From: Naegleria gruberi
Taxonomy: Eukaryota
Reading direction: 5' to 3' (one strand)
Assembly (NCBI GenBank): GCA_000004985.1
Contig: GG738864.1
Length of the DNA: 64,000 nucleotides
Shown here one piece after another: positions 47,224 to 64,000 of the stretch; within the stretch, counting starts at the first letter, position 1, and every line of letters begins with the position of its first letter. Made by a program: the position numbers and the translations under genes. A model generated the notes under the pieces. That model did not search any database. It was not told where the DNA came from and worked only from the letters and a program-made list of their open reading frames with translations.

Positions 47224-47620
47224 GTTTGATAGTGACGTGTGTTAAATATTTTTTTTTGTTATTTTTTTCTTTGATGGGTGTCAAGTTTGATGATTGATGA
47301 AGACTTGTTATCGATCCTTAACAAATCACTTTCTTTTTTGTTTCTTTCAATAATAAGGTTTTTAATGTTTCTCTTAATCTTCAGAGCTCTTAATAGAATT
47401 ATAAGATCATCCTGGTTCAATTCGAATATGAATATTAAATCATGTAAAATTGACATCAAATTCACTAATAGAACCAATCAATACACCCTCTGCTATCCAC
47501 ATTATAATACTTTAATCTCAATTATTCTAATTTCCTTCCCAAATCACCAAAACCAACCTCTTTTCACATTTCTTAATTTTCTTGGATTCTCAAAATTTTT
47601 CTGAACCATCCGAAAAAAAA

Positions 47621-48667
47621 ATGTCATCATCAAGTGAATCGTCATCCAATATTCCACCAACCAATCAGCAAAAGATTGAAATTATTAGGAAGTCCATTGA
47701 ATTGTTTCAACATGATAAAATTCTTGATGCCTACGATTTGTTGAAGAAACAATATTCCATCACTGAAAATTCCATTTCTTCTCTACTTGAGAGCAGGGAA
47801 TCATCTTCCGATATTGATGAACAGGAAGAACAGAATGAAACTCTTAGCAAGGAGGAAGCAGAATTGGTCAAGCTAATATACAAGGATGGAGCTCTGGCGA
47901 AAATGTTACTTTCTGAATTTTCCAGTAGTGCTGGATGGAATACTTGTGTTGATAAGGATGATTGTAAAACATTCTACAAGCAAACGTGTAAAATTGATGG
48001 AGGAAAGGGAGGATCGGAGGCAGAGCCATCATTGCATGCCATTAAAATTGAGGGAATTATAGAGACACCTGTTTTTAACTTGATGTCTATATTGTATGAG
48101 GTTGATTTGTATAAGAATTGGGTTCCTCAATTGGGTGAATGTGGAGTAATCAAATATTTGGGTGGAAATGGAACATCGAGATTTAGATTTCTTTCGTATT
48201 TTAGTTTTAATTTGCCATGGCCAATGTCTTCAAGGGATTCATTGACCTATGCTTTTGTGGTGGATCGTTCTGATTATGAACAGGATCCCTCGATATTGGT
48301 TGTAATTAGAGGAGCTGATACGCACAAGGATTCTTCACTTGCTGATCTTATTTCAAAACATGATAATCAAACACATGTGAGAGTGGGAATTGAGTATGCA
48401 GGATTTTTAATTAAAATGTTATCAGAAGATACCTGCCATGTTTCACTCATTGCTAATGTAGATCCAAAACTGAGCTATATTCCAATTTGGTTTCAAAATT
48501 GGTTGACCAATAATTTGAGCTATTTAATGATTTCAAAATTGAGACAAGCTGCTGAAAAAGTTCCAAACTCTGAATACAGTGTCAGAATTAAGAATAACGA
48601 TCAGGTTTATGGTGAAATTACGAGAAGACTTTCAAAATTCCTAGTCACCCACAATTTAAAAAAGTAA
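47621..48667 (+). CDS. START-domain (StAR-related lipid-transfer) protein
   Basis: The track start at 47582 is TTG. The first ATG is at 47621. A central segment with ...NLPWPMSSRDSLTYAFVVD... is characteristic of START/Bet v1-fold lipid-binding domains. Confidence 0.55.
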   Translation: MSSSSESSSNIPPTNQQKIEIIRKSIELFQHDKILDAYDLLKKQYSITENSISSLLESRESSSDIDEQEEQNETLSKEEAELVKLIYKDGALAKMLLSEFSSSAGWNTCVDKDDCKTFYKQTCKIDGGKGGSEAEPSLHAIKIEGIIETPVFNLMSILYEVDLYKNWVPQLGECGVIKYLGGNGTSRFRFLSYFSFNLPWPMSSRDSLTYAFVVDRSDYEQDPSILVVIRGADTHKDSSLADLISKHDNQTHVRVGIEYAGFLIKMLSEDTCHVSLIANVDPKLSYIPIWFQNWLTNNLSYLMISKLRQAAEKVPNSEYSVRIKNNDQVYGEITRRLSKFLVTHNLKK

Positions 48668-49835: not shown

Positions 49836-52800
49836 ATGCTCTCCGATCAAGATTATCAGAAACATAAGAGGAGGAAGGAAGAAGAGGAAAAGAAGAGAAA
49901 GGAAAGAGAGGATGAATCTTCTTTGCCTTCATCATCATCTAATTCCACTCCTCAACAATATGAACATCAAACTCTGAATAATAATATTGTGATAATAGAT
50001 GGTGATGACACTGATAGTAATGATGCTGTTATTATCACCTCTCCAACAATTCAAGAACAACAAACAGCTAAATTTGGTTTTCTAGTCAATAGTCAAGAAG
50101 ACAACAATAATTCATCATCATCACCACATGTTACAGGTAGTAGCAATAAGAAACGAAAGACTACCAGTCACTCTCCTTTAACAACAAATATTTCTCCTAT
50201 TAAACAAGAAGAAGACATGTCTTCTACTGTTCCACCCAATCAACAAGAACAAACAGCCAACAATAACATGGTGATGATGGATAACAACAATAGCAATGAA
50301 AAGCCTTCTACACCCAAACAAGGCACAACAACAACAAATTCCGATGAAGATGATGTTATAATGATTGAGAGTAATGAAGCAACACTTTCACCTTCCTTGT
50401 TACACAAGATGCAAGGTTCTCTAAAGATTGAAGAATCACAACAACAGGAACAAACTAACACTAGTGCAAGTACTACTACCATTCCATCATCATCGGAATT
50501 ATCAGATAATAATGATACATCATCAAAACCTTCGGAAGAGAATGATCAACAACAACAACAAGAAGGCACCAACAATAATAATACGGTTCTTCTCAATTCT
50601 GTCAAGACAATAACTGAAAACACTGGTGTGAGAATAGTGGTGCATGCCTTCATTCCTCCACAGTACACTGATGATCTACAACCAGCCTTGAGGTACAGTT
50701 ATAAGGAAATTACAGGTTCGGGGAAAAACAAGAAGGAAGAAGTTAAAAAGGTAGACATTCCACTGGGTCACACTCCTGTTGAGGGTCTGGATATTTGGTT
50801 TTGTGTTGTGAAATTGCCACTTCAAGTTGATTTCGTGAGCTTTAAGATTATTGTTAGAGATGAGAGTAAGGCAATTCATACTGATAAAGAGGTTAGATCG
50901 ATAACACTTCCAAAATATACCACTCCAGCTGTTCATCACATCTATATTAACTTTAATCCAAAATCAGAAAAGAGACAGGGAATTTTGGACATGTTCAAAA
51001 CCAAACTTTCAATGACTGAAACCTTTTTAACAGAGTTATTTACTCCTTCCAAGATTGATACTGGTGATTTATTGCCATCTGATACTGAGAATAATGTTTT
51101 TGAGAATTTAATTAGAATTAACAGAAAACGAATTCAAATATTTCATTCAAGATTGGATGGGTTTATGCAAAGTATGGCTCATCTCAGTGATTTGAATTTT
51201 TACACTAAAATACACATCAAACAAAATTATACCAGCACCAACAGACACAATTTAAAGTCACCATATGTGTATGAGGATACCAAAAAGTTTCTCCTTTCTT
51301 TACCAGAAAAGATCATTCAGGATAAGACTGATTTCGAATTGAAATTGATAATGACCCTTGTATTCTTTGAAAAGATTTATTCCATCTCTGGTCACAATGA
51401 TAAGAAGAACTTTGATGAAATGATTGATCTTTTGAAAGAATTGGATGTGTATACACTCAATACTATATTTCATCACATTTTGAAAAAGGAAGCAGAAAAA
51501 TCTACACCAATCAACTTGATTAGAGATTCATTCAGAAATTCCATTCAAGCTCTGATAAATGTCTTTTCGGCCACCACAAATGACAAGAGAAAGTTTAGCT
51601 ATTGGATTATGGCTGCTCCATTCATTAGTCTTGAATTGAAGTTTCACGGTAGCACCAGTCCACTGGATATGCTGATAATGCAATCTGATAAGAAGAGGTT
51701 CGATACAGAATTTGCCACCTTGACTTCAATAGTTGAAGAGAAAAGAGCACTCATTTCGAATAGATCTCATGTCGTGTCTGGTACAGATATTGGTATTATA
51801 TTCTCAACAATTTTTAAAATGGCCTCCTCTCTTAATGATATCAATTGTATTCTAACATTAACATCAGATATGCAATCGAATGAAGGAAGGTTCAGATCTT
51901 TCACCACTCAACTATGTGAATTCATTTCTAATATGGATTCTTGGGAAGATAGTGATTTTGATTCCTTTACATATTTATTGGAAAATCATTCATACGTTCT
52001 TTCTAGCACATCTATGTTGGCAAGTTATTTCAAGAATAAGGCTCTCAGTGAAGTTAGCCACTACCACTCTGAGAATATTTTGAAGCATTTACTCATGTTC
52101 CTTGAAAATGAAGAATTCGTTGCTAATAACAAAGAAAAGGATCTCATTTCCCTGTCAAAACTCATAGCCAACTTCTTTTCTACATTGTTTGGAAAGAAAA
52201 AGTCAAGTTACAACCTCTTTAAAAAGAGTGTCTATTCAATGAAAGATATAGTTGCCTTTTATTCTAAACTTGCAGAATCCTTATCAAAAACTTGTATGAA
52301 TGACTATCAACTTATTATCATTGAATCCATTTCCAATAACTCTTCCTTCACTTCCAGCGGTTCAGACCCGTATTCAAGGATTACATCTCTTATAGAAATT
52401 TGTGAAGAGTTTGAATTGGATGAAAGGGCAACACTTGGTAATATTCTTGCTCAATTGACTTTGGATACAGTCAAATCATTGGGAGTTAGCAACAAGGTAA
52501 TCAACAAACTCTTGGATACTGTCTCAAGGTTCTATGCAGACAGTATTGATATTACAATTGATGTTGTTTCCAAGAAAGTTTTAATGTACATAATAGAAAC
52601 ATTGAGTGAGGGATCATCAATGACCATCGAGATATTGTTCAAACATCACTTGTTGTGGAGTCGTTTATTTCAACTCAATGATATTTTCACAGACAAGAAA
52701 TTGATTGAAGGAGTACAGCTAGTGGACAAATTCTCCCAACAAATCAATAACCATACCATCGCCCTAAATGATCTGAGAATTATTTTAAGAGATGACAATC

Positions 52801-55800
52801 AAGATAGGTTCGTATCACTGGCAACATATTCCGGTGTCAGTGTTATTTCCAAGAATACTCTGATAGATATTGACTTTCAGGTTCAATACTTTGAAACACT
52901 ACTGAAACAGTGTCACGACTTTTGCAACCATTACTGTCAACATGATAATGTAAATAATGAATTCAGGTTGCTATTGGAAAAGATTGAAGCTGAAATCCAA
53001 AATAATGCCGTATTTAGTAGTATCAATTCAAGCTTCAATAATTTTGCCTTCCTTAAAGAGCTTCCAACCCTTCAACATTTATGTAAATCCGAGCTCTTTT
53101 TACAATTCTGGAACGAAACCATAGATCAAATGGTTGAAAGTCTGGTTACTGAAACTGAATCCACCTCAAAGATAATATTCACAATTAATGATTTGAAATC
53201 CCGAGTCTATCCACAAGTAGTTCAAAAATGGCTCCAGTTGTACAATAATCTGAACATGAAAACTATTTCATTTTTAGAACTTCAAACATTATTCAGTGAT
53301 AATACTGAGGAGGAGACGTTCCAAGATATGCTCTTCCTCAAAAGAACTTGTCAATCAACTGATAACATGCTTGATGGAGATGCCACTCAATTCCACCTTA
53401 TCAATGAAAACAATCAAAGTTATATTCAATGGTCAAGAGAACACGCCCAACTCATCTCGAGTTTTTTAACTATAGTCAAACAAAAAGAGTACATACCAAT
53501 GATAGTTTCTATTTTGAGCAAGTTTAACAGTAATTTTTCAACTTCTGTTTTCACAGATTCGTACTATGTTAAGATTGAAAAAATTCACAAGTACATTCTT
53601 GAGAAATGGGAATCTGGAAACCTCTTTGATATTGTTGACATGGTCAATGAAGCCAAATCGGCATTGCAACATTTGGGAAAGAACGAATTACTATTGATTG
53701 AATTTTTGAATGAATCTGATGATTTATTGAATTGGTTATGGCAACACAATGATTCCAGTCAATTCAATGAATTGATCAGAGTTTGCAGAGAAGTTACTGA
53801 TGATGCTATCATATTGCAGTCATTTGCTTCTCTTACAAGTGCCAGAGAATATTTGTACGAGTTGGTTTATCCATCAAGAAAGTTTACCAGTTGTGAATCC
53901 TTTTTGAGGGCAATCAACACAGCCAACTTGAACAAGGATGATACAGAAATTCAAAGGAGATTGACAGACTGTAAAGTTATTAGATCAAACTTGGAGAATG
54001 TCAAACAAGTATTTAAAGAAAAGACGAGAAGCCCCTCTGTGACTGCTGTTTTAAAGCTTTTAGAAATTATAAGTGGTGCGACCATATCTGTAACAACAAT
54101 TAATTCTATCTCAGAGGATAATTATATTATATGTAATGTAAAAGGCAAGATCACACACTTGAGTGATTTGATTGATATTAGAACAACAGTGTTAAATACC
54201 ACCATTCCAAACGAACTGAAGGAGAAACATATTAACTTGGATGCTGCTATCGATACATTCTGTAAATTAGTTAACATTCTCTCATCAATGAAGAGAACTT
54301 TAATAGAATTAGGCATCAATGGTAGTATGATAGTTGATAATTACGAGTTTACCATCACTCTGAATGTTGATAATTTAGAATATTTATTATTCCAATTTAT
54401 GGAGGAAGAAAAGAGACTGTCAGAAATGAATTCCAACTGGAAGTTAACGATCAAGAATATTAGATTGGAATATAATTTACTGAATTACTTCAATATGCGA
54501 GAGTTGAGAAAACTCATAAAATGGCTCGATATGATAAAGGAAGGAAATTCTATAGTTGGAGAAAGAGTATATTCCATGCTCAAGATTATTGATAATAATC
54601 TCACTCTTCAACAGTACAAATCATTTGAGAAGGAATGGATCGATTACGATATTATGGTGGATGATGATATTCAATTGATATCACTTGGTTCATGTCTGAA
54701 TTCACATTTCAATCTGATTGAGGATAGTCACGAACAAATCGATTTCCTGCCAAGTTCCGATTTGGGCATGTCTACAATGAATGTAGAGAAAAATAACAGC
54801 AAGCAAAACCTTATCGTCATTGCATGCCAAAATGATCAAGAGGTTGAATCTATTGTTTATTCTTTGTATGCTGTTAAATCCATTCTACCACAAGTTGAAG
54901 AAGTACTCATGTGCAGACCAAATACAGACTTTGAAGATATTGAATTGGTTGTAAGAAGATGGTCAAAATCGGAACACAAAAAGCAAATATTTACATTGGC
55001 TAACATTCAACATTTGGACTATACTTTACAATGTAAAGTAGTGGACATGCTTAAAAATTATTTACAAACAAGTACAACATTAGCAACCTTAGCTATTGTT
55101 TCAAGTACTCAACAACAGAGAATTATCAATGCCTTCTCTAACTTTAGATTTGATGGGTCTCCACTTTCTTCTGAGGACTTGAAAGACTCTCTTCTTCAAA
55201 TTGCCAAACCTGGAAAGTTTTCTTCAGGTGTTAATGTTTACACTAGCCCTATGGCAGGTTGTGGTAAAAGTCACACAATATTTGAACGTTCTCACATTGA
55301 GAAAAAGAAGCTAGTCTACATTTCTCTAAGAGAGTCAGTTAACATTACAGAATTAATTAATCAATTGAATGAGAAAACTAGGAATAGCCAACCTGTAACT
55401 TTGCACTTTAACATTGCTCCAAATGTGGATACCATTGTTAATTCAATACTTTTCGAATTGATTGTAATAGGTTCACTCAGAGATCACCAATGCAACGTTT
55501 ACCACAGAAGGCCAATAGATTCTATTGCAATAGAAATACCAAACCAAGTTGGAAATAGAACTCTTGTACGTTCTGTTCCATTCTGTAAATATCTACCAAG
55601 AGTAGAATGTATTGTTTCGGCTCATACACTCTCCATCGAAAGGAAATACGAAATTGGTACTAATGGTAGTGTGATGGTCTCAAACAATAGAAAGCTAAAA
55701 TATGTTTGCTCATTATTATTGGCTCATCAAAATGGCGTCTTTGTCAATAATAACGGAACCGATTTCGTTAACTTTACACCTAACATGGACAATATGAACA

Positions 55801-58800
55801 AGGAGGAATGTTTAACCATTCTCACAAGATATTGCAATGCTGGAGGTCAGATATCGTATGCTCTTATTAATAATTTCGTAGAGTTTACTTTTGAATTCTT
55901 TGAAAATATGATGGATTATGAGGTTTTAAGATTTTTACCATCTCTAGATCCTGGATTTGCAACTTTACCTCAATCTATTGTAGGAATGATTTTGGAAATG
56001 TCAAAAGACTTTGCTATTAGACAATTGGTGTTCAATTTTAATACTGACAATCCTTCTTTGGAGGAATATTCTAACAGATTCTCAAGTATTAGAAAGTGGG
56101 AAGAATCAAGTCACCCAGTCATTATTTTCACCAAAGAAACTTTCCAATGTAATGGTTTCAACGTCATTTCCTTGGATCAATCTTCAGTTAATAGATTCTT
56201 CCCAGAACATTTGAGAGCTCTCCTCCATGAACAAGGAATTAATATCAACTTTGACTTTAAGAAAACAGTAGAGGAAAAGGGTCAAAGAGCAGCAGAACTA
56301 GAAGGACTCAAATTCTTGCAAATGATATCTGGAAGTTTTTCTCTTGATGAAGAGATGGGTGAAATCATGAAAATAATGCTAATTTCAAAGCTAGATGAAA
56401 CAGATTATGTTCTCACACAAGACAACTTGATGAAAATGATTGCCATTATTTACAGATTCAAATCCAATCTCCCTGTCATTTTACATGGTGAATCAGGTGG
56501 TGGAAAGACTTATTTGATTAGTCATTTATGCAAATTTTTAGATTATCAATTATATAGAATGACACTTCATGGTGGTAATACTGAACAGGATATTTTCAAT
56601 TTTTTGAATAATATTGTTATTGAAGCCAATAGTCATGCTATGGCAACATATGTTGCGTTCATTGATGAGTGCAACACATGTTCAGCAATGGCAATTGTTA
56701 AGGAAGTTGTATGTGATGGACTTTTGAATGGTGTGAAAATACCTGAGAATGTGAAAATTGTTGCAGCTTTGAACCCATACAGATTGAAGAACGAGAAGGC
56801 AAAGCAATTGGAGCAATCTATTCAATCTCAAACAGGAATCATCTACAAGCATCCTTCATTTGCCAACATTCCTGATCCATTGGAAAATCTTGTTTATAGA
56901 GTTCATCCACTTCCAGATAGTTTTGTTGATCACTTGTATGATTTTGGTTCTCTTTCTGATGGTGTTGAAAGATTATATATTGGAAGTATGCTAAGACAAT
57001 CTCTAAAGAAGTATTTGAAGGCAGACGAGAATGGAAAAATAACAAATGAAACTGTTCGCCAAGCTGTCAACTTCTTTGAAAGTCTTATTCATGCCTCTCA
57101 AGTTTTTATTAGACAAACAATGCACGAAGAAAGTTCTGTCAGTTTGAGAGATGTGAGAAGATGTATACAAGTATTTTATTGGTTAGTAGAAGAGTATCAC
57201 AATCCTACTTCTGTCTTTAGAGATGTACTCAACTTGGATCACCATCACGGTAATGAAATATTCAATACTCACAACAAACACTTTAAAAACTATGTCATGT
57301 TGTCTCTTAGTTTTGCCTTTTACAGTAGATTGAACAGACAAGAGAGAAGTGGCTATTTGAGATACCTCTCAAAAGAATGTCCAACCATTGTTCCATCAGA
57401 ATTTGAAAAATTACTCACCAAATATCAAACAAAACTTACAGAACAGATGAATATCAGTGAAGGTATTGCCCTCAACGAAGCCCTCACAGAAAACATCTTT
57501 GTCTTGTTCCTTGCTCTTGTTAATCACATTCCTCTTTTAATTCAAGGATATCCAGGAACATGTAAGAGTTTGGCAGTTGATTTAATCAGTAAATCTATGA
57601 GAGGTAAAGCATCTAACAACAAACAGTTGCAACACTTGCCAGATATTAACATATTTGCATTCCAATGCTCACCTTTATCAGAAGCTAAAAGTATAGCCCA
57701 AACATTTAGAGCAGCAAGACAATACGCAAAAGAAAGTTCTGGATCTTCTTCATTATCAGTAGTTCTTTTAGATGAAATAGGTTTGGCAGCTGACAGTCCA
57801 AAGTTACCTCTCAAGATTCTTCACCAAGAATTAGAAAATACTGCAGAAATCAGTGTAGTATCCATCAGTAACTATTCTCTAGATAGCTCCAAGATGAACA
57901 GAATGTGTGTACTTTACAGATCTACTCCCTCTGCAAAGGATCTCAAGGATACTGCTAAAGGTATCATGAGATTCCACAAAAGCTTTAAATTACAAAGTTA
58001 TTTGGAACCTATTGCTACCAGCTATTTGGAACTTTACAAGAATCAAAGAATTAAGCAATTCTTTGGTTTACGTGACTTTTATAATTTGGTTAAATTCCTT
58101 TATAGAATTATCAATAACAAGATGACATACCACGGAAGACCTATTGAATTTGAAAAATCATTGGTCTTATCAGTTCTGAGAAATTTCGGAGGTATTCCAA
58201 GTGAAGACATGGATAATGTTCTTAAGATTTTTGAAAGAAACACAGGTATCAAATTTACAGAATATGAAAAGCCAAATAGTTGTAACCTTTTGAGGTTGAA
58301 TTTGAAGGACAGTGCTGATGCAAGACATTTACTTGTGCTAACGAACAACAATTCAGCATTGAATCTGTTATTTGACTATGAAATACTTTCTCTTTCTAGT
58401 ACTATTGTATTATTTGGAAGTGATTTTCCAGATGAAAAGAATGATAACTTTAGTCTTTCACTTCAATTACAAAAAATCAAACTGGCTATGTCAGAAGGAA
58501 ACACAGTTGTCTTGGTTCATTGTGATTCACTCTATGAAAGTTTGTATGATTTGCTAAACCAGCACTATGTAGTTGTTGAAAATAAGAAATTCTCTAGACT
58601 TGCCTTTGGTAACTCATCTGTTACTTGTCCTGTACATGATAACTTTAGAATTATTATCATTGCTGAAGCTAGTGATGCTTACACCAAGTTGGCCATTCCA
58701 TTCTTGAATAGAATGGAAAAGCATGTGATTCTAAGAGATGACATGATGAACGAAGACAATACCAATTTACATTCCCAATTATCTGCTTTTGTGGAAAAAT

Positions 58801-61800
58801 TAATGGCTCAATTGAACGAAAAGGAGATTTCAAAGGTATTTATTGGATCTCACAAGGAAACTCTTAAAAGTTTGGTTCAATCCATCGAGCCAAAGGATAG
58901 TATGGTGGATGAAGAAATAACTGAACAGATGGATATTGCATTTGACAAACTTTTATGGAACATGACACCAGAAGCTGTCATTAAATCAAAGAATGAGAGA
59001 ATAATGAAGCACTACTTTGAGGGACAAGAACATTCATCATTGCCAAGTTTCTTGAATAATGTTTTTACTGATATTCAAAAATGGCAAGACAAATTTGGTG
59101 GTATTCAAGCTATTGTTACAACCTTCTCCTCATTGCTTAGTGAAGTTGAACTTCTTATTAGAGATCATGTTACTGTTGTGAAAGAAAAGCAGGTTCACTT
59201 ACAATTCCTAGAATTGCACGATATGAAGACTAGTAGTGATTTGAATACTGAATTGGATCACTTTTTCGCCTCTAACCACAAAGAGTCAATGCTTGTTCTT
59301 CTCTGTGATCCTGTAGCTGCTTCTACAAGAAGAATTCACTATGCTCAATATACATGTGAAAGTAAGAGAAATACATTCAATGCTGCTGGAACTGGTAACA
59401 TTAGACACGTCATTTTCTTGGTAAATTTATCCAGAATTCCAACAGAAAGTTCCAAGTATTCATTCGATTTTGATAGACGTTGGAATTATGTATTCATTGA
59501 TGACGTTTCTAACAGTGAACAACAACAAGGTTTCCCTGAATTGTTCGAACTTGTCAATACTCCTTTCTCAAATCTGATTAACAATACTCTTTCTGTTGAA
59601 CAAATTATTTTGGAAAATTTACACAACTCCCTTTCCAGAATAGTTTATCCATTCCCGAGATCATCTTCTCAAATTCAATCACAACTTTCCATGCTAAGGA
59701 AGTGGCTCTCTCAATCCAGTAGATATTCAGCCAGATTCACCAAACTTATCAGAGAAAAGGTTATTGATATTGTCAAACACTCAATCAAGAATGACGAACA
59801 GTGGTACCTTCAAGTGATCAATAATGACAAGAATATTTTACAAATATGTGGTACTCTTCGTTCTGCAATTCATTACTTTATTTCAAGAATTGTTTTTATG
59901 GCCTTCTCATCAATCTTGAGTGTCATGGATAGATATAATAATTTACAATTATTGGATCAAGAAAATGATTCAGAAACCCCACAATTATGGTTAGATGTTT
60001 TTGAATATGATGTTCACAGTAAGCTCTTTGAAAGTGCTGCCTTTTCAATGAACCAATCAGGCTATGTTAATATTTTGCAAGGAACTTCAAAGCACTTTGA
60101 TGCCAAATTCCCTTTCAGTTTCATTTTTGCTACAGTGGCAAACTCTTTCAGAGTGAATCACTTGGTAGATCAATTCTCCAGAGAAGATCTTGAAAAACAC
60201 TTTGAATTCACCTTGCCAAGATTCGTCAAGTATCATGCTGATATTGGAGATGAATGTATTGTGGATGACGATATTGACATGAACGACGAAGGATCAGATA
60301 AGATTCTCCTTCCTAATGACTTAGTCTCTGGCTATATCAACGATTATCACTACTTGTTTGGATCAAAGAATTGCAATATGCTTCCAAGTGAGAATGATCA
60401 ACTTGTTCTCATCCATGAACTGATTTCAAAGGACAGATTACCTGACCAGTACTATTCCTTGTTAGATTCTCAAATTTCATATTGGAACAATGAAAAGAGA
60501 GTGAAAATTTACTTCCAAGTATTTGACTCTCTGAAAGATAAGAATGTACTCGAAAAATTCTTAAACTCCATCCCATCATGTAGAACCATTGCAGAAATGG
60601 ACATGCTTCTTTGTGAATTAGTAATTGTTCACTTCAATCCAGAATATCACATTACCTTAGAAAGTGATCCTGTAGAAAACAATACTTGGGTAAGAAATGT
60701 TAGAAACATGACGGCAAGTATGACACGTCTCTTAGATTTGCTCAAGGATCCACTCATGTCGGCTGAAGTCAATGTCGACGTTGCAGAGAAATGCTCAAGC
60801 TTATCTCATCAATGGAAATGCATCAAATTCTTTGCTCACTTCCTCAAAGATCTTGTCATTAGTACTGAAAATTTGATTGACTCTGATATTACAAAGAAGT
60901 ACTGGGAAAAACTAAATGGTTCAGGAACAAGCCACTTTTACCAACCAAATGCTCTTGTGGAGTTCCTTCAAACATTGACAGACATTAACAAGAAGTGTAC
61001 TAGAGAGGAATCGTCTGAAGATTTTGAATGTTTCATTTGTCTTTCTGTTCCTGATCCTGATAGCATTAGAACAACAGTTTGCTGCAAGAGATATATCTGT
61101 TATGATTGTGCTGATGAATTTTGTCAATATCAAAAGAAATCAAAGCAATGCGGATGGTGTCAAAAAGAACTCGACAATGATGAAACTGTGGATACCTATA
61201 CTATTCCTTGTTCTAATATTTTGAAGGAAGTTGAAGATATTTCACAAAAGGAAACTCTCTTTATTGAAAAATCCACCAAGCTCATTGAAACCTTCATTAC
61301 CATGTTTTGTGTTGAAAGAGGAATTTCAGATATGCTCATTAGAGACATTATTAGTTATATTTGTGAAAACAAAAAGTTCCTTTCCGAACACAAACTCCTC
61401 AAGTTTATTCTCTCAGATTCAATGAAGAGTTCCATTATTCGAGCACTCTTCTCTTTAAAGAGAAAGGACCCTAATCAATTCGATCATGTAGCTGCTTACT
61501 TTGAAGAGAACTTGAAGGTCCTCCATACTCAATCTAAAAATGTCGACTTCCCAATTGCTGTTTCGATAAATCAAATCTTGGAGGATGAAGCAGAGTTTTA
61601 CTCACAAGACGAAGAAGGAAAGATTAATTTGGAATATATTTTACAAACCTTGTCAAGAAATGGTTTCAGCTTGGCTTTGGGTAATGATTTCGTTGGTTTC
61701 CTCAACAATACCAGTATTGCAAAAGTGGCTGTCAAGTACTTTGTGAAATTACTCCTCAACAACAAGTTATTCGATCAAAAATCTGCTAAAAAGCTTGTTG

Positions 61801-64000
61801 ACTCTGTGGGTAATCTATTCACACAAAGTGAAAACTTGATGCTCTACTTTTTGAGAGAATTGACCTCTGTTGTTGGTCTATCTGAAACTAGAGATATTAT
61901 CAATAATAGCCAGCTACTTGGAAGTATCAAGTTTATTCAACAATGGAAAGAGAAGGAAGACGTTGCTTCATTCCTCAAAGATTCTGTTTTATCATTGTCA
62001 AATCCATTCCTCAATCTTCCTTTGTACGAACAAATTTCCAAATCTATTTCTGAGATTAGACTCTCAAACACCGATACTCTATTCACAAAACTCTACACAT
62101 TCCATAGAGAACGTAATTCATTGCATCTCTTCTTAGCTGGAGTGCTTGTCGTAGTTTTGGAAGAAGTTACGCTTTCAAACAAGATGGGAACTAGAAAATT
62201 TGAAAATCTCAAAACTTGGGTAGATAGAAATCAACAATATTTCCAATTATTAGGTGGAATTTCAATTCATCCACTTCTCTCCCAATTGATTACTAATAAG
62301 GTATCTAACTTTGCAAATATTAATCCAGAAACACTGATGACACAAATTCAACAATTGAGATGTATCATTCATTTAATGTTCATGATATTCACCAATTCAC
62401 AATCACTGGGGTTCTTCAGTGCATGCTTGTTGAGCCCTCAGAATTTGTTGAATAACATGTTCCCAACCATGAACGATGATGTCATGTCAGGATTGAGTAG
62501 TATCACCAATGGTAGAATTTATCAATGTCCATCTGGTCACTTGTACATTATCACAGAATGTGGAAGAGCTGCAACAACAGGACGCTGTCCAGAATGTGGA
62601 CAAGAGATTGGAGGATCCAACCATAACCTACTCAATACAAATAGAGAATACTTTGCCAATGACCAATCAGCTCCAACTAATCTCTGTCGTAGAAATGCTA
62701 CAGAAGAAAGTGGACCAGCAGATGTGTACTTGAGCCAGAGAAGTCTCTCACCAATTGAGGTTAGATTTATCAGATTAGTTATGAGTGGATTATTGTTTGC
62801 ATCCAGCTCATTCCTTGGTAAGGATTGTGCAATGATTATCAACACTAGATATGCCAATCCAAGAGATGTTTCTTCCTTCTTCTTTGAACACTTTATCAAT
62901 GATTGGAATATACTCTCTAGACTGTTATCAAAGAATGACGAACAAGTAAGCATTATCGTTCACAATCTCATTACGAGAATGACTTTATCAAATGTGGTGT
63001 TGGATAATCAATTGATGGTCAAGACATCTCGAGAAAATTTTGAAAGATTGTTGAGTGAAACCATCTTGCAAGGTGCTCTCAAGAGTGATAAAATTATGCA
63101 AGAAGTGGAAAACATGATTAGAAATCACCAAACTTCAGTAGAAGGAAGAAATAATCACAAGAATGAAAAGCTTTCACATGCCATTCAGTTTACAGAAATT
63201 GCAGACAGGGATGTAGTGAAACTTCAACCTTCTCTGTTTATGAAATTGGAAAATATCACTTTTGATCACTTTTCAAATACATTCAAACAATCCAAGAATG
63301 ATTATCCAATTCTAAGCACAGTCATTGAGGAAATTGTATCACTACAAGCCCTTCAATATTTACCAGATATTTTCAAAATGTACGTTGAAGTTTGCAAGAG
63401 ATGTGACAAGAAATTGAGAAAAGAGCAAACTATAGAACAAAATATTGGACAATTCATTAATGATATTCAAGATCCTATCGAGAGAGAAAATCTTGCTATT
63501 CACTTTGATGGTTTTGCTAGAGCATGGAATATGGTTTTCAAATATGTGGAAATGTATGAATGTTTGGTTATTCCTGAACAAATGAAAACTATTAGAATGG
63601 GACTGGATAAACCATTAGTATTCATTCTTCCACACGAGAAGGATGAATCCATTTTTGGAATTGCATTAACCCACTATCTCATTGGTATTCATAACAAGTT
63701 TGTTAAACTTACCAATAGTGCAGAAACAGATGTGAGAGTTATTTCTAGCTCTGATTTGGATACTTCTCTAGCATTCAAGTTTAGTTTGAAAGAAGATTTA
63801 ATGCCTTTCGTGAGAGATCACTGTAGAAGACCTATTTCATTTAAATCCACAGACTCGATCAAGTATGACTTTGAGTTTATTCAACAACACGTTGTGGATC
63901 ATTTCTTATCCGGCAAACCACTTGTAGAAATCAAGATCAAGATGATTGAACTAATGGGAGAATTGAGAGCTTCTGGTGCAAAGGAAAGATTTACCAACCT
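49836..64000 (+). CDS. Giant RNF213 (mysterin)-like AAA+/RING/RZ-finger E3 ubiquitin ligase. 5' part of the gene, ORF continues beyond the window.
   Basis: The first ATG after an in-frame TAG is at 49836. No in-frame stop appears through 64000 (at least 4721 codons), and the track lists no ORFs in this frame because the reading frame never closes. The N-terminus is low-complexity over about 280 aa. P-loop-like motifs: MAGCGKSH (about 55250), GESGGGKT with downstream Walker B AFIDEC (about 56491 and 56655), and GYPGTCKS with Walker B VVLLDEIGLA (about 57545 and 57765). C3HC4-type RING at about 61024-61170: CFICLSV...CCKRYICYDCADEFCQ...CGWC. RZ-type zinc finger at about 62521-62640: YQCPSGHLYIITECGRAATTGRCPECGQEIGGSNH. 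Confidence 0.75.
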   Translation, partial: MLSDQDYQKHKRRKEEEEKKRKEREDESSLPSSSSNSTPQQYEHQTLNNNIVIIDGDDTDSNDAVIITSPTIQEQQTAKFGFLVNSQEDNNNSSSSPHVTGSSNKKRKTTSHSPLTTNISPIKQEEDMSSTVPPNQQEQTANNNMVMMDNNNSNEKPSTPKQGTTTTNSDEDDVIMIESNEATLSPSLLHKMQGSLKIEESQQQEQTNTSASTTTIPSSSELSDNNDTSSKPSEENDQQQQQEGTNNNNTVLLNSVKTITENTGVRIVVHAFIPPQYTDDLQPALRYSYKEITGSGKNKKEEVKKVDIPLGHTPVEGLDIWFCVVKLPLQVDFVSFKIIVRDESKAIHTDKEVRSITLPKYTTPAVHHIYINFNPKSEKRQGILDMFKTKLSMTETFLTELFTPSKIDTGDLLPSDTENNVFENLIRINRKRIQIFHSRLDGFMQSMAHLSDLNFYTKIHIKQNYTSTNRHNLKSPYVYEDTKKFLLSLPEKIIQDKTDFELKLIMTLVFFEKIYSISGHNDKKNFDEMIDLLKELDVYTLNTIFHHILKKEAEKSTPINLIRDSFRNSIQALINVFSATTNDKRKFSYWIMAAPFISLELKFHGSTSPLDMLIMQSDKKRFDTEFATLTSIVEEKRALISNRSHVVSGTDIGIIFSTIFKMASSLNDINCILTLTSDMQSNEGRFRSFTTQLCEFISNMDSWEDSDFDSFTYLLENHSYVLSSTSMLASYFKNKALSEVSHYHSENILKHLLMFLENEEFVANNKEKDLISLSKLIANFFSTLFGKKKSSYNLFKKSVYSMKDIVAFYSKLAESLSKTCMNDYQLIIIESISNNSSFTSSGSDPYSRITSLIEICEEFELDERATLGNILAQLTLDTVKSLGVSNKVINKLLDTVSRFYADSIDITIDVVSKKVLMYIIETLSEGSSMTIEILFKHHLLWSRLFQLNDIFTDKKLIEGVQLVDKFSQQINNHTIALNDLRIILRDDNQDRFVSLATYSGVSVISKNTLIDIDFQVQYFETLLKQCHDFCNHYCQHDNVNNEFRLLLEKIEAEIQNNAVFSSINSSFNNFAFLKELPTLQHLCKSELFLQFWNETIDQMVESLVTETESTSKIIFTINDLKSRVYPQVVQKWLQLYNNLNMKTISFLELQTLFSDNTEEETFQDMLFLKRTCQSTDNMLDGDATQFHLINENNQSYIQWSREHAQLISSFLTIVKQKEYIPMIVSILSKFNSNFSTSVFTDSYYVKIEKIHKYILEKWESGNLFDIVDMVNEAKSALQHLGKNELLLIEFLNESDDLLNWLWQHNDSSQFNELIRVCREVTDDAIILQSFASLTSAREYLYELVYPSRKFTSCESFLRAINTANLNKDDTEIQRRLTDCKVIRSNLENVKQVFKEKTRSPSVTAVLKLLEIISGATISVTTINSISEDNYIICNVKGKITHLSDLIDIRTTVLNTTIPNELKEKHINLDAAIDTFCKLVNILSSMKRTLIELGINGSMIVDNYEFTITLNVDNLEYLLFQFMEEEKRLSEMNSNWKLTIKNIRLEYNLLNYFNMRELRKLIKWLDMIKEGNSIVGERVYSMLKIIDNNLTLQQYKSFEKEWIDYDIMVDDDIQLISLGSCLNSHFNLIEDSHEQIDFLPSSDLGMSTMNVEKNNSKQNLIVIACQNDQEVESIVYSLYAVKSILPQVEEVLMCRPNTDFEDIELVVRRWSKSEHKKQIFTLANIQHLDYTLQCKVVDMLKNYLQTSTTLATLAIVSSTQQQRIINAFSNFRFDGSPLSSEDLKDSLLQIAKPGKFSSGVNVYTSPMAGCGKSHTIFERSHIEKKKLVYISLRESVNITELINQLNEKTRNSQPVTLHFNIAPNVDTIVNSILFELIVIGSLRDHQCNVYHRRPIDSIAIEIPNQVGNRTLVRSVPFCKYLPRVECIVSAHTLSIERKYEIGTNGSVMVSNNRKLKYVCSLLLAHQNGVFVNNNGTDFVNFTPNMDNMNKEECLTILTRYCNAGGQISYALINNFVEFTFEFFENMMDYEVLRFLPSLDPGFATLPQSIVGMILEMSKDFAIRQLVFNFNTDNPSLEEYSNRFSSIRKWEESSHPVIIFTKETFQCNGFNVISLDQSSVNRFFPEHLRALLHEQGININFDFKKTVEEKGQRAAELEGLKFLQMISGSFSLDEEMGEIMKIMLISKLDETDYVLTQDNLMKMIAIIYRFKSNLPVILHGESGGGKTYLISHLCKFLDYQLYRMTLHGGNTEQDIFNFLNNIVIEANSHAMATYVAFIDECNTCSAMAIVKEVVCDGLLNGVKIPENVKIVAALNPYRLKNEKAKQLEQSIQSQTGIIYKHPSFANIPDPLENLVYRVHPLPDSFVDHLYDFGSLSDGVERLYIGSMLRQSLKKYLKADENGKITNETVRQAVNFFESLIHASQVFIRQTMHEESSVSLRDVRRCIQVFYWLVEEYHNPTSVFRDVLNLDHHHGNEIFNTHNKHFKNYVMLSLSFAFYSRLNRQERSGYLRYLSKECPTIVPSEFEKLLTKYQTKLTEQMNISEGIALNEALTENIFVLFLALVNHIPLLIQGYPGTCKSLAVDLISKSMRGKASNNKQLQHLPDINIFAFQCSPLSEAKSIAQTFRAARQYAKESSGSSSLSVVLLDEIGLAADSPKLPLKILHQELENTAEISVVSISNYSLDSSKMNRMCVLYRSTPSAKDLKDTAKGIMRFHKSFKLQSYLEPIATSYLELYKNQRIKQFFGLRDFYNLVKFLYRIINNKMTYHGRPIEFEKSLVLSVLRNFGGIPSEDMDNVLKIFERNTGIKFTEYEKPNSCNLLRLNLKDSADARHLLVLTNNNSALNLLFDYEILSLSSTIVLFGSDFPDEKNDNFSLSLQLQKIKLAMSEGNTVVLVHCDSLYESLYDLLNQHYVVVENKKFSRLAFGNSSVTCPVHDNFRIIIIAEASDAYTKLAIPFLNRMEKHVILRDDMMNEDNTNLHSQLSAFVEKLMAQLNEKEISKVFIGSHKETLKSLVQSIEPKDSMVDEEITEQMDIAFDKLLWNMTPEAVIKSKNERIMKHYFEGQEHSSLPSFLNNVFTDIQKWQDKFGGIQAIVTTFSSLLSEVELLIRDHVTVVKEKQVHLQFLELHDMKTSSDLNTELDHFFASNHKESMLVLLCDPVAASTRRIHYAQYTCESKRNTFNAAGTGNIRHVIFLVNLSRIPTESSKYSFDFDRRWNYVFIDDVSNSEQQQGFPELFELVNTPFSNLINNTLSVEQIILENLHNSLSRIVYPFPRSSSQIQSQLSMLRKWLSQSSRYSARFTKLIREKVIDIVKHSIKNDEQWYLQVINNDKNILQICGTLRSAIHYFISRIVFMAFSSILSVMDRYNNLQLLDQENDSETPQLWLDVFEYDVHSKLFESAAFSMNQSGYVNILQGTSKHFDAKFPFSFIFATVANSFRVNHLVDQFSREDLEKHFEFTLPRFVKYHADIGDECIVDDDIDMNDEGSDKILLPNDLVSGYINDYHYLFGSKNCNMLPSENDQLVLIHELISKDRLPDQYYSLLDSQISYWNNEKRVKIYFQVFDSLKDKNVLEKFLNSIPSCRTIAEMDMLLCELVIVHFNPEYHITLESDPVENNTWVRNVRNMTASMTRLLDLLKDPLMSAEVNVDVAEKCSSLSHQWKCIKFFAHFLKDLVISTENLIDSDITKKYWEKLNGSGTSHFYQPNALVEFLQTLTDINKKCTREESSEDFECFICLSVPDPDSIRTTVCCKRYICYDCADEFCQYQKKSKQCGWCQKELDNDETVDTYTIPCSNILKEVEDISQKETLFIEKSTKLIETFITMFCVERGISDMLIRDIISYICENKKFLSEHKLLKFILSDSMKSSIIRALFSLKRKDPNQFDHVAAYFEENLKVLHTQSKNVDFPIAVSINQILEDEAEFYSQDEEGKINLEYILQTLSRNGFSLALGNDFVGFLNNTSIAKVAVKYFVKLLLNNKLFDQKSAKKLVDSVGNLFTQSENLMLYFLRELTSVVGLSETRDIINNSQLLGSIKFIQQWKEKEDVASFLKDSVLSLSNPFLNLPLYEQISKSISEIRLSNTDTLFTKLYTFHRERNSLHLFLAGVLVVVLEEVTLSNKMGTRKFENLKTWVDRNQQYFQLLGGISIHPLLSQLITNKVSNFANINPETLMTQIQQLRCIIHLMFMIFTNSQSLGFFSACLLSPQNLLNNMFPTMNDDVMSGLSSITNGRIYQCPSGHLYIITECGRAATTGRCPECGQEIGGSNHNLLNTNREYFANDQSAPTNLCRRNATEESGPADVYLSQRSLSPIEVRFIRLVMSGLLFASSSFLGKDCAMIINTRYANPRDVSSFFFEHFINDWNILSRLLSKNDEQVSIIVHNLITRMTLSNVVLDNQLMVKTSRENFERLLSETILQGALKSDKIMQEVENMIRNHQTSVEGRNNHKNEKLSHAIQFTEIADRDVVKLQPSLFMKLENITFDHFSNTFKQSKNDYPILSTVIEEIVSLQALQYLPDIFKMYVEVCKRCDKKLRKEQTIEQNIGQFINDIQDPIERENLAIHFDGFARAWNMVFKYVEMYECLVIPEQMKTIRMGLDKPLVFILPHEKDESIFGIALTHYLIGIHNKFVKLTNSAETDVRVISSSDLDTSLAFKFSLKEDLMPFVRDHCRRPISFKSTDSIKYDFEFIQQHVVDHFLSGKPLVEIKIKMIELMGELRASGAKERFTN

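What the first reader, a model, noticed from the sequence alone, without database searches (positions are those of the whole stretch)
49836..64000. RNF213/mysterin-like giant E3 ligase encoded as a single uninterrupted exon of at least 14 kb
The ORF shows the RNF213 domain order: a low-complexity N-arm, a series of AAA+ modules of which two carry intact Walker A and Walker B motifs (GESGGGKT...FIDEC and GYPGTCKS...LLDEIG), a RING, and an RZ-type finger (CPSGH...CGR...CPECG..IGG). RNF213 is best known from animals as an antimicrobial and lipid-droplet-associated ligase and the moyamoya-disease gene. Here it sits in a compact, AT-rich, intron-poor genome and has no introns over more than 14 kb. 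The two AAA modules with intact Walker motifs parallel the two catalytically competent modules of the animal protein.
Basis: partly seen in the sequence, partly recalled or inferred. Interest (0 to 1): 0.8.

Follow-up and report, generated by a model that had tools for sequence, protein, structure and literature searches.

The report
Naegleria's intronless giant RNF213-family ubiquitin ligase
The 14-kb open reading frame is a genuine, full-architecture relative of the animal immune and moyamoya-disease ligase RNF213, encoded without introns in the amoeboflagellate Naegleria gruberi; the gene model was already public but unnamed, and similar genes turn out to exist in many other protists, so it is a solid but only moderately surprising find.

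Summary
One frame is open from the ATG at 49836 to the window end (4721 codons). It is identical to the first 4721 residues of the public single-exon model NAEGRDRAFT_79490 of Naegleria gruberi (4953 aa, "hypothetical protein").

Membership in the RNF213 family is well supported:
- phmmer against PDB finds only RNF213 (E = 9e-164).
- Profile-profile comparison extends homology to the E3 module (E = 2.7e-40) and the distal N-arm plus linker (E = 4.7e-29).
- The Walker A/B-intact modules align with animal AAA3 and AAA4. AAA2 keeps only its P-loop, as in mouse.
- The RZ finger keeps all four zinc ligands and the catalytic Cys/His pair (C4242/H4263) at the mouse spacing.

Two caveats apply. The "RING" sits exactly on the animal RING but has Arg or Lys in place of the His ligand and scores just below Pfam threshold. 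The CBM20 domain could not be shown.

Homologues occur in dinoflagellates, stramenopiles, Rhizaria, Amoebozoa and Picozoa. Some are already labelled RNF213 by NCBI. In a distance tree the Naegleria protein falls in a protist clade, not among animals.

Most likely mechanism (inferred): an ATP-gated ligase that takes ubiquitin from an E2 onto C4242. The cellular role is untested.

Verdict: new member of a known kind, moderate interest.

The parts
49836..63998 (+). Open reading frame, codons 1-4721 of a 4953-codon single-exon gene (NAEGRDRAFT_79490). It runs off the window end.
49836..50621 (+). Low-complexity, probably disordered N-terminus (aa 1-262; rich in S, N, T, E, Q)
50622..52142 (+). Proximal N-arm (aa 263-769), including a strand-rich stretch around aa 264-375 where animals carry CBM20. 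No detectable homology to animal RNF213, so CBM20 is not demonstrated.
   Evidence: Pfam found nothing. hhalign probability 0.1%. AF2 pLDDT 21-30 here.
52143..54608 (+). Distal N-arm (stalk) and linker (aa 770-1591), homologous to animal RNF213 residues ~872-1703 (pangolin numbering)
   Evidence: hhalign probability 99.8%, E = 4.7e-29. Foldseek top hits are RNF213 only. Weak collinear phmmer stretch.
54798..59570 (+). Dynein-like core of six AAA units (aa ~1655-3245), aligned with mouse 1775-3405
   Evidence: phmmer stretch aa 1664-3244, i-Evalue 1.2e-132. Mouse domain borders from PMC7311170.
55251..55274 (+). AAA2 P-loop MAGCGKSH (aa 1806-1813). The Walker B position at aa 1855-1861 (TLHFNIA) has Asn where relatives have Asp and has no catalytic Glu. 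The unit may bind nucleotide but is not hydrolytic, as in mouse.
   Evidence: PMC7311170
56487..56510 (+). AAA3 Walker A GESGGGKT (aa 2218-2225)
56655..56672 (+). AAA3 Walker B AFIDEC (aa 2274-2279). Sensor-1 Asn lies in AALNPYR (aa 2310-2316).
57546..57569 (+). AAA4 Walker A GYPGTCKS (aa 2571-2578)
57762..57782 (+). AAA4 Walker B VLLDEIG (aa 2643-2649). Sensor-1 Asn lies in SISNYS (aa 2676-2681).
59571..62393 (+). E3 module (aa 3246-4186), homologous to animal RNF213 E3 module (pangolin 3489-4411)
   Evidence: hhalign probability 100%, E = 2.7e-40. Foldseek: seven RNF213 entries at E = 5.6e-13 to 5.3e-10, next hit 3.8e-3.
61029..61160 (+). RING-like Cys-rich motif (aa 3732-3775): C-x2-C-x13-CC-x4-C-x2-C-x4-C-x8-C-x2-C. 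It sits on the animal RING, but the fourth ligand His is replaced (Arg3752, or Lys3751 by another alignment).
62526..62624 (+). RZ finger (aa 4231-4263). Zinc ligands C4231, H4235, C4251, C4254. Predicted nucleophile C4242 and general base H4263.
   Evidence: Pfam PF20173 E = 3.8e-20. Spacing identical to mouse. C4242 and H4263 are invariant in nine protist homologues.
62394..63998 (+). C-terminal domain region carrying the RZ finger (aa 4187-4721, cut by the window end). It matches mouse ~4391-4904, the part that docks the E2 in mouse.
   Evidence: phmmer stretch aa 4187-4700, i-Evalue 3.3e-29; PMC12075652

Best explanation
This is the Naegleria gruberi member of the RNF213 (mysterin) family. 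It is a ~560 kDa single polypeptide from one ~14.9 kb exon.

Domain order:
- disordered tail
- helical N-arm
- six-unit dynein-like AAA ring
- E3 module with a decayed RING
- C-terminal domain carrying an intact RZ finger

Most likely mechanism, by analogy with the mouse and human enzyme:
- ATP bound in the AAA ring switches the E3 module on. AAA3 and AAA4 are competent, and AAA2 is a non-hydrolysing nucleotide site.
- A ubiquitin-charged E2 docks on the C-terminal domain and passes ubiquitin to Cys4242 of the RZ finger (transthiolation).
- His4263 then helps transfer ubiquitin to amino or hydroxyl groups of a substrate, possibly a non-protein one.
- The RING-like motif is probably dispensable.

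Shown here: the identity and the conservation of motifs. Inferred: the catalytic steps. Speculative: the cellular role, such as marking bacteria, vacuole membranes or lipid droplets in a bacterivorous amoeba.
For: Intact ORF. It runs 4721 codons where the other frames have a stop every 10-16 codons. It is identical to the public single-exon model.

Sequence and profile matches:
- Only RNF213 is matched in PDB, at E = 9e-164. The match is collinear over the AAA core and the C-terminal domain.
- Profile-profile homology covers the E3 module (E = 2.7e-40) and the distal N-arm (E = 4.7e-29).
- Foldseek of both AF2 models returns only RNF213 as significant hits.

Motifs:
- Walker A, Walker B and sensor-1 of AAA3 and AAA4 are conserved. 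AAA2 has a P-loop only. This matches the mouse description (PMC7311170).
- The RZ zinc ligands and the Cys/His dyad are at identical spacing.
- The dyad is invariant across nine protist homologues.
- The RING-like motif aligns on the animal RING.

Native gene:
- GC3 is 0.32, against 0.26-0.32 in neighbouring genes.
- In a distance tree the protein clusters with protist sequences at 98/100 bootstrap, not inside animals.
Against: - No transcript or protein evidence for this gene was available.
- The RING has lost its His ligand and is below Pfam threshold.
- The AAA2 Walker B position is Asn, where all aligned relatives have Asp. ATP 'glue' binding is therefore unproven.
- Residues 263-769 show no detectable homology, and CBM20 could not be shown.
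- Both AF2 models are low confidence (pLDDT 46-48). The fold evidence is therefore only local.
- No orthologue from other Naegleria species appeared in a full-length search. The gene may be dispensable or lineage-restricted.
- All functional knowledge comes from mammals, where induction is by interferon. Naegleria has no such system (own knowledge).
- The tree is neighbour-joining on one region only.
Confidence: 0.85

Rival explanations
1. The gene was recently acquired by Naegleria from an animal by horizontal transfer, or it is animal contamination of the assembly. It would then not be an old protist gene.
For: - The best named full-length hits in the first search are animal RNF213s: 26-27% identity over ~40% of the query.
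- Apart from animals, a RING at this site was seen only in the small Naegleria clade.
- No orthologue from other Naegleria species was found.
Against: - Identity to animals is only ~27%.
- Closer relatives are non-animal: P0168 at 31% over aa 545-4887, and contig L001 at 30-43%.
- In the neighbour-joining tree of the AAA3-AAA4 core, Naegleria pairs with L001 at 99/100. Both sit in a 98/100 clade with a Cercozoa genome bin and the dinoflagellate Durusdinium.
- GC and GC3 match the neighbouring genes.
- The gene lies inside a 442-kb scaffold among typical Naegleria genes.
Confidence: 0.05
2. It belongs to another giant AAA+ family (dynein heavy chain, midasin/Rea1, or a ZNFX1-type RZ protein) and only resembles RNF213 superficially.
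For: Pfam reports only generic or dynein-related AAA models (AAA, AAA_5, AAA_7, a weak midasin lid) plus the RZ finger, which ZNFX1 also carries.
Against: - No dynein, midasin or ZNFX1 chain reaches E <= 0.01 in PDB, while RNF213 scores 9e-164.
- There is no helicase or NFX1 zinc-finger hit.
- The E3 module and N-arm are homologous to those of RNF213.
- RNF213's own core is dynein-like, so the AAA_5 and AAA_7 hits are expected (PMC7311170).
Confidence: 0.01
3. It is an RNF213-family protein that no longer works as the animal enzyme does. Examples: a scaffold or ATPase without ligase activity, or a ligase with a housekeeping role (lipid droplets, membrane or protein quality control) unrelated to microbes.
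For: - The RING is decayed.
- CBM20, the proposed pathogen-facing domain in humans, is not detectable.
- The AAA2 Walker B position differs.
- The gene appears absent from other Naegleria species.
- Mammalian RNF213 also acts on lipid droplets (abstract of bioRxiv 10.1101/2021.05.10.443411).
- A START lipid-transfer gene lies just upstream, which is a very weak hint.
Against: - All six RZ catalytic and zinc residues and both competent ATPase sites are conserved. That is unlikely under loss of ligase function.
- A 14.9-kb ORF is kept intact in an AT-rich genome.
- The RING is dispensable in mammals too (PMC12075652), so its decay says little.
Confidence: 0.3
4. The long ORF is an annotation or assembly artefact, a pseudogene, or several adjacent genes fused in silico.
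For: - There is no transcript evidence for Naegleria itself.
- The exact gene product was not on record in the contig look-up.
Against: - 4721 stop-free codons cannot arise by chance at this composition.
- Collinearity with RNF213 runs end to end.
- P0168 is likewise one ORF of 4779 codons.
- Transcriptome-derived complete ORFs of ~4700-5000 aa exist for relatives in EukProt.
Confidence: 0.02

Closest known systems
Mouse and human RNF213 / mysterin (PDB 6TAX, 7OIK, 8S24, 9G08)
   Same: - Same order of distal N-arm, six-AAA ring, E3 module with a RING-position motif, and RZ-bearing C-terminal domain, over a similar length (4953 against 5148-5207 aa).
- AAA3 and AAA4 are the Walker-intact units. 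AAA2 has a P-loop only.
- RZ zinc ligands and the Cys/His dyad sit at identical spacing.
   Different: - Only ~27% identity in the core.
- The RING His ligand is replaced by Arg or Lys, and the motif is sub-threshold in Pfam.
- The N-terminal ~770 residues are unrelated or undetectable, so CBM20 is not shown.
- The AAA2 Walker B position is Asn.
- The gene has one exon. The many introns of the animal gene are own knowledge.
- There is no interferon system to induce it (own knowledge).
Unnamed protist homologues closest to it: P0168 (NCBI assembly GCA_037189345.1, 4779 aa) and metagenome contig L001 (JGI 3300062135)
   Same: - Near full-length collinearity: 31% identity over aa 545-4887, and 30-43% over aa 1524-4953.
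- A RING-position motif and an RZ finger in the same places.
- P0168 is also a single ORF.
   Different: - Both relatives keep a canonical C3HC4 RING. The L001 segment scores 33.6 bits on zf-C3HC4_3, above threshold.
- L001 has at least seven GT..AG introns of ~45-57 nt.
- The organisms are unidentified.
RNF213-like proteins of other protists: Durusdinium and Symbiodinium (labelled rnf213-alpha/RNF213 by NCBI), Amoebophrya, Reticulomyxa, a Cercozoa genome bin, Epipyxis, Ectocarpus, Clastostelium, Picozoa
   Same: - A conserved AAA3-AAA4 core with both Walker pairs.
- Full-length examples (Epipyxis, Ectocarpus, probable ciliates) also carry the RZ finger with the Cys/His dyad.
   Different: - The full-length examples of these groups that were checked have no RING at the homologous site.
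- Many entries are fragments.
ZNFX1
   Same: It shares the RZ finger, with the same zinc ligands and catalytic Cys/His (bioRxiv 10.1101/2025.10.14.682297).
   Different: ZNFX1 is an SF1 helicase with NFX1-type zinc fingers and a Miz domain. None of these is present here, and there is no AAA ring in ZNFX1.
Dynein heavy chain and midasin (Rea1)
   Same: Six concatenated AAA units in one polypeptide. Pfam AAA_5 and AAA_7 models match.
   Different: - No significant sequence match to any solved dynein or midasin.
- In RNF213, AAA1 lacks Walker motifs (PMC7311170).
- No microtubule-binding stalk or MIDAS domain is detected.

Membership tests
RNF213 / mysterin | Six-unit dynein-like AAA core that matches RNF213 better than any other AAA+ family | tested here: met
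   phmmer against PDB finds nine sequences at E <= 0.01, all RNF213 (best 9e-164). A continuous stretch aa 1664-3244 matches mouse AAA1-AAA6. The top named database hits are RNF213.
RNF213 / mysterin | Only AAA3 and AAA4 carry complete Walker A, Walker B and sensor-1. AAA2 has a nucleotide-binding loop but no catalytic residues. | tested here: met
   - AAA3: GESGGGKT, FIDEC and the Asn in AALNPYR.
- AAA4: GYPGTCKS, LLDEIG and the Asn in SISNYS.
- Both align with animal AAA3 and AAA4.
- AAA2 has MAGCGKS with no acidic Walker B.
- Reference description: PMC7311170.
- Motif scans found no further P-loop.
RNF213 / mysterin | RZ finger with four zinc ligands and the catalytic Cys/His dyad | tested here: met
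   PF20173 scores 71.7 bits against a cut-off of 27. C4231/H4235/C4242/C4251/C4254/H4263 lie at offsets 0, 4, 11, 20, 23, 32. This equals mouse 4451/4455/4462/4471/4474/4483.
RNF213 / mysterin | E3 module homologous to that of animal RNF213 | tested here: met
   hhalign of a 9-protist profile against a 12-animal profile gives probability 100% and E = 2.7e-40, aa 3250-4185 against pangolin 3489-4411. Foldseek of a low-confidence model returns RNF213 only.
RNF213 / mysterin | Canonical C3HC4 RING inside the E3 module | tested here: inconclusive
   - The motif aligns on the animal RING.
- The His ligand is Arg3752 or Lys3751.
- zf-RING_2 scores 25.2 bits against a cut-off of 27.3, and zf-C3HC4_3 has E = 0.0045.
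- The AF2 model is too poor to judge the fold.
- The relatives L001 and P0168 keep a canonical RING.
RNF213 / mysterin | Helical N-arm (stalk) and linker preceding the AAA core | tested here: met
   hhalign gives probability 99.8% and E = 4.7e-29 for aa 770-1591 against pangolin 872-1703. Foldseek top two hits are RNF213, at E = 5.8e-7 and 2.6e-6.
RNF213 / mysterin | N-terminal CBM20 carbohydrate-binding-like domain (human aa 378-515) | tested here: inconclusive
   There is no Pfam hit on aa 269-415 and no profile hit for aa 263-700. AF2 pLDDT is 21-30 there. The domain is described in PMC11549300.
RNF213 / mysterin | ATP-dependent transthiolating E3 activity with a UBE2L3-type E2; ubiquitylation of lipid A | not testable with these tools
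   This needs biochemistry. The mechanism is described for mouse in PMC12075652.
ZNFX1 family | SF1 helicase core plus NFX1-type zinc fingers upstream of the RZ finger | tested here: not met
   No helicase or NFX1 zinc-finger family appears in the Pfam scan of the whole protein at E <= 1.
Dynein heavy chain / midasin | Significant similarity to dynein motor or midasin beyond generic AAA motifs | tested here: not met
   No dynein or midasin chain reaches E <= 0.01 in PDB. The only Pfam signals are short P-loop matches to AAA_5 and AAA_7, and a midasin lid at E = 0.26.

The most novel reading that the evidence does not exclude
RNF213 would not be an animal, or even a vertebrate, invention. It would be an old, patchily retained eukaryotic machine.

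Evidence in hand:
- Its complete architecture is present in a free-living bacterivorous heterolobosean: stalk, ATP-sensing ring, E3 module with a RING site, and the RZ Cys/His active site.
- Relatives occur in at least five other protist lineages.

On this reading:
- The ancestral job is cell-autonomous marking of bacterial or lipid surfaces by ester-linked ubiquitin in phagotrophs.
- The RING is an ancestral part that has decayed or been lost repeatedly.
- Naegleria gruberi, with a single-copy, intronless gene, would be a simple system to test this.
Probability: 0.3. Interest if true: 0.65.

Novelty: new member of a known kind. Interest (0 to 1): 0.42.

Why it matters
The literature I could search treats RNF213 as an animal protein. 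[quoted passage not shown] No searchable paper mentions a protist homologue.

What the protist copies add:
- A full-length copy with every catalytic residue intact in a culturable, bacteria-eating amoeboflagellate shows that the ATP-gated RZ ligase predates interferon signalling. Relatives occur in dinoflagellates, stramenopiles, Rhizaria, Amoebozoa and Picozoa.
- The ancestral substrate and role become an experimentally approachable question.
- They give a natural mutational series. The RING is present, decayed or absent. The RZ dyad was invariant in every full-length homologue aligned. This agrees with the mammalian finding that the RZ finger, not the RING, is the active site.

Limits on the importance:
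- The gene model is already public.
- Homology is obvious to a BLAST search.
- Some protist homologues already carry the RNF213 name in NCBI.

Tried and rejected
- **AF2 models.** The E3-CTD region (aa 3600-4720, 6-row alignment) gave pLDDT 45.9. The N-arm (aa 258-1457, 5-row alignment) gave pLDDT 47.8. Both are too poor to judge the RING cross-brace fold or a CBM20 sandwich. I used only the Foldseek rankings, and with caution: TM-scores are ~0.2, and the score includes amino-acid similarity.
- **Shallow profile comparisons.** Single-sequence hhalign of the E3 region against three animal sequences matched only aa 3259-3390 (probability 84%). Adding L001 fragments extended the match, but probability stayed at 83%. 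Single-sequence hhalign of the N-arm was not significant. Only the deeper 9-versus-12-sequence profiles were decisive.
- **Full-length MAFFT, N-terminal 400 residues.** The alignment is unreliable there, and I did not use it.
- **Contig look-up of P0001.** It found nothing, so the downstream end of the gene comes from the protein record only.
- **Full-length protist profile against PDB.** Both alignments exceeded the 6000-column limit of the search of solved structures (7094 and 6001 columns), so neither was submitted.
- **Literature.** Two paper searches were badly posed and returned papers without RNF213. Searches for the assembly accession and the locus tag found nothing. One accession I added to one search was a guess and should be ignored.
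- **A mislabel, corrected.** I first labelled P0045 as a fish sequence. The cluster look-up showed it is from the dinoflagellate Durusdinium trenchii.
- **Hypotheses rejected.** Dynein or midasin membership, ZNFX1 membership, recent animal-to-Naegleria transfer, and pseudogene or fused-gene artefact. See the rival explanations.
Full report
**1. The observation**

The + strand frame that starts at 49836 has its last stop at 49833. It then stays open for 4721 codons to the end of the window. The other two + frames contain 522 and 302 stops over the same ~15 kb. A stop-free run of this length cannot be chance in DNA of 34% GC.

The first codon after the upstream stop is ATG. A word-indexed search of 5.8 billion proteins returned a 100% match: P0001, NAEGRDRAFT_79490 of Naegleria gruberi. 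It is 4953 aa, is called "hypothetical protein" by NCBI and "RZ-type domain-containing protein" by UniRef, and lies on a 442-kb scaffold. Its first 4721 residues equal the window translation. The public model is therefore a single exon from this ATG, and 232 codons lie beyond the window.

**2. What it is**

*PDB and Pfam.* phmmer against all PDB chains gave nine sequences at E <= 0.01. All are mouse or human RNF213, the best at 9e-164. One continuous stretch covers aa 1664-3244. After correcting for the construct offset, this equals mouse ~1784-3409, which is the whole six-unit AAA core (1775-3405 in PMC7311170). A second stretch covers aa 4187-4700, the RZ-bearing C-terminal region. Pfam adds the RZ finger (PF20173, 71.7 bits) and generic or dynein-type AAA matches at the two P-loops. 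It reports no helicase and no RING on the whole protein.

*ATPase motifs.* I aligned eleven homologues full length with MAFFT L-INS-i.
- GESGGGKT and FIDEC, with a sensor-1 Asn, fall on the animal AAA3 motifs GETGCGKT and FFDEAN.
- GYPGTCKS and LLDEIG, with a sensor-1 Asn, fall on the AAA4 motifs GKPGSSKS and VLDEIG.
- A third P-loop (MAGCGKS, aa 1806) falls on AAA2. Its Walker B position lacks a catalytic Glu, as in animals, and here even the Asp is Asn.
- This reproduces the mouse pattern. Only AAA3 and AAA4 are competent, AAA2 binds ATP without hydrolysing it, and AAA1 has no Walker motifs (PMC7311170).

*Active site.* In mouse the RZ finger binds zinc through C4451, H4455, C4471 and C4474. 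It uses C4462 as the ubiquitin-accepting nucleophile and H4483 as general base (PMC12075652).
- Naegleria has C4231, H4235, C4242, C4251, C4254 and H4263 at the same offsets: 0, 4, 11, 20, 23, 32.
- C4242 and H4263 are invariant in an alignment of nine protist homologues.

*The parts that sequence search missed.* The E3 module and the N-arm were not significant in single-sequence searches. AF2 models of both were poor, with pLDDT 45.9 and 47.8. Foldseek against PDB nevertheless returned only RNF213 as significant hits.
- E3 model: seven RNF213 entries at E = 5.6e-13 to 5.3e-10, with the next hit at 3.8e-3.
- N-arm model: two RNF213 entries at 5.8e-7 and 2.6e-6, with the next hit at 0.015.

The decisive test was profile against profile, using nine protist homologues against twelve animal RNF213s.
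- The E3 module (aa 3250-4185) matches pangolin 3489-4411 with probability 100% and E = 2.7e-40.
- The distal N-arm and linker (aa 770-1591) match pangolin 872-1703 with probability 99.8% and E = 4.7e-29.
- Residues 263-700 match nothing.
- The CBM20 domain reported for human residues 378-515 (PMC11549300) is therefore neither shown nor excluded.

*The RING.* Residues 3732-3775 read C-x2-C-x13-CC-x4-C-x2-C-x4-C-x8-C-x2-C.
- Three independent alignments place this motif on the animal RING.
- The fourth ligand, His, is Arg3752. By alignment to the closest relative it is Lys3751.
- On the excised segment Pfam gives zf-RING_2 25.2 bits against a cut-off of 27.3, and zf-C3HC4_3 E = 0.0045.
- The two closest relatives keep a canonical C3HC4. 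L001 scores 33.6 bits, above threshold, and P0168 matches the pattern.
- I therefore call it a decayed RING. In mammals the RING is dispensable for autoubiquitylation and LPS ubiquitylation (PMC12075652).

**3. Relatives and origin**

A profile of the AAA3-AAA4 core found 91 proteins at E <= 1e-20. An exhaustive phmmer of aa 3700-4721 against 1.84 billion cluster representatives found 1378 at E <= 1e-3, 268 at E <= 1e-10 and 46 at E <= 1e-30.

Named non-animal sources:
- Alveolates: Symbiodinium and Durusdinium, which NCBI already labels RNF213 or rnf213-alpha, and Amoebophrya
- Rhizaria: Reticulomyxa, with many copies, and a Cercozoa genome bin
- Stramenopiles: Epipyxis and Ectocarpus
- Amoebozoa: Clastostelium
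- Picozoa

AT-rich ~4300-5000 aa proteins on 13-17 kb contigs look ciliate-like, judged only from their N/K/I-rich composition.

The closest relatives are unidentified organisms.
- P0168 has 4779 aa and is one uninterrupted ORF on a 14.9-kb NCBI contig. It shows 31% identity over aa 545-4887.
- L001 is a JGI metagenome contig with 30-43% identity over aa 1524-4953. Its gene is broken by at least seven GT..AG introns of ~45-57 nt.

In a neighbour-joining tree of 663 core columns, Naegleria pairs with L001 in 99 of 100 bootstraps. Both sit in a clade with the Cercozoa bin, Durusdinium and unnamed environmental sequences in 98 of 100. GC3 of the gene is 0.32, like its neighbours at 0.26-0.32. Recent transfer from an animal is therefore unlikely.

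Among the full-length homologues checked, a RING at this site occurs in animal-type sequences and in the Naegleria clade. It does not occur in the Ectocarpus, Epipyxis or ciliate-like groups, nor in Hydra. This fits either an ancestral RING lost repeatedly or a closer tie between these two groups. I cannot decide between them.

No protein from another Naegleria species appeared in the full-length search. This may mean loss in those species or a gap in the collection.

**4. How it most likely works**

*Shown:* a complete, constrained RNF213 architecture with two competent ATPase sites and an intact RZ active site.

*Inferred from the mouse enzyme (PMC12075652):*
- ATP binding in the ring licenses the E3 module.
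- E2~ubiquitin docks on the C-terminal domain.
- Ubiquitin moves to C4242.
- H4263 assists transfer to lysines or hydroxyl groups.

*Speculative:* the target. In mammals RNF213 coats cytosolic bacteria and parasite vacuoles and ubiquitylates lipid A (PMC11549300; PMC8727461). It is also involved in lipid droplet formation (abstract of bioRxiv 10.1101/2021.05.10.443411). For a bacterivorous amoeba either role is plausible. I put about 0.3 on an antimicrobial role.

**5. Comparison with what is known, and novelty**

The protein passes every sequence-testable defining feature of the RNF213 family except two: a canonical RING and CBM20. Both are inconclusive. It fails the tests for ZNFX1, because there is no helicase, and for dynein or midasin.

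The RNF213 papers I could read describe the protein as vertebrate or mammalian. The RZ finger of ZNFX1, but not RNF213 itself, is said to reach back to choanoflagellates. No searchable paper combines RNF213 with Naegleria or discusses a protist homologue.

Set against that, the gene model has long been public and homology is obvious to a database search. Dinoflagellate homologues already carry the name. An intronless gene is ordinary in this window, where ORFs of 1610 and 1102 codons are also uninterrupted.

**6. Verdict**

This is a new, unnamed member of a known family with moderate evolutionary interest (0.42). Confidence that it is an RNF213-family ligase gene is about 0.95. Confidence in the stated mechanism is about 0.7. 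The overall figure of 0.85 refers to identity plus the general mode of action.

Noticed in passing
window 46512-46630 (-): A complete 5S rRNA gene (Rfam 105 bits) sits alone between protein-coding genes, about 3.2 kb upstream of the giant ORF.
   Followed up: no
window 15305-15375 (+): tRNA-Gly (anticodon GCC), found by both ARAGORN and Rfam.
   Followed up: no
window 42346-44247 (+): A 633-aa ORF in a local GC peak (0.42-0.43 against ~0.34). In order, it has a signal-peptide-like start, two Cys-rich knots and long Pro/Thr/Ser tandem repeats (PTKPTEPS..., PSRPSR...). A Gly/Arg run and a 'GDPHFTT' motif follow; the latter recalls the GDPH autocleavage site of VWD/RGM-type domains (from memory). 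There is no Pfam hit. It looks like a secreted mucin-like protein.
   Followed up: partly
window 47582-48667 (+): A START (lipid-transfer) domain protein lies directly upstream of the RNF213-like gene. Animal RNF213 acts at lipid droplets, so the adjacency is curious, but it is probably coincidental.
   Followed up: no
window 28091-32923 (+) and 10224-13532 (-): A 1610-aa PAS + adenylate/guanylate cyclase protein and a 1102-aa NHL/teneurin-NHL repeat protein. Both are single uninterrupted ORFs.
   Followed up: partly
L001 1-10301 (JGI metagenome 3300062135, contig Ga0606108_0374): This contig carries the closest environmental relative of the gene. It has at least seven GT..AG introns of ~45-57 nt where N. 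gruberi has none, and it keeps a canonical C3HC4 RING. The next genes downstream are IFT80/IFT172-like, so the organism is a flagellated eukaryote.
   Followed up: partly
L002 324-14663 (NCBI GCA_037189345.1, contig JBBCKJ010005299.1): A second full-length relative (P0168, 4779 aa). It is also one uninterrupted ORF, with GC 0.43, a poly-Asn N-terminus and a canonical RING. The organism could not be identified with the tools available.
   Followed up: partly
protein searches: No homologue from Naegleria fowleri or N. lovaniensis appeared, although the query was nearly full length. This points either to loss in those species or to a gap in the collection.
   Followed up: no
P0004 / P0005 (Hydra vulgaris RNF213): The Hydra proteins have no recognisable RING at the homologous site, although they keep the RZ finger. 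RING loss therefore also happens within animals.
   Followed up: partly
P0054, P0062, P0069, P0072, P0077, P0088, P0094, P0111 (Reticulomyxa filosa): The foraminifer Reticulomyxa has many separate RNF213-like AAA-core gene models. This suggests a large paralogue expansion or a fragmented assembly.
   Followed up: no
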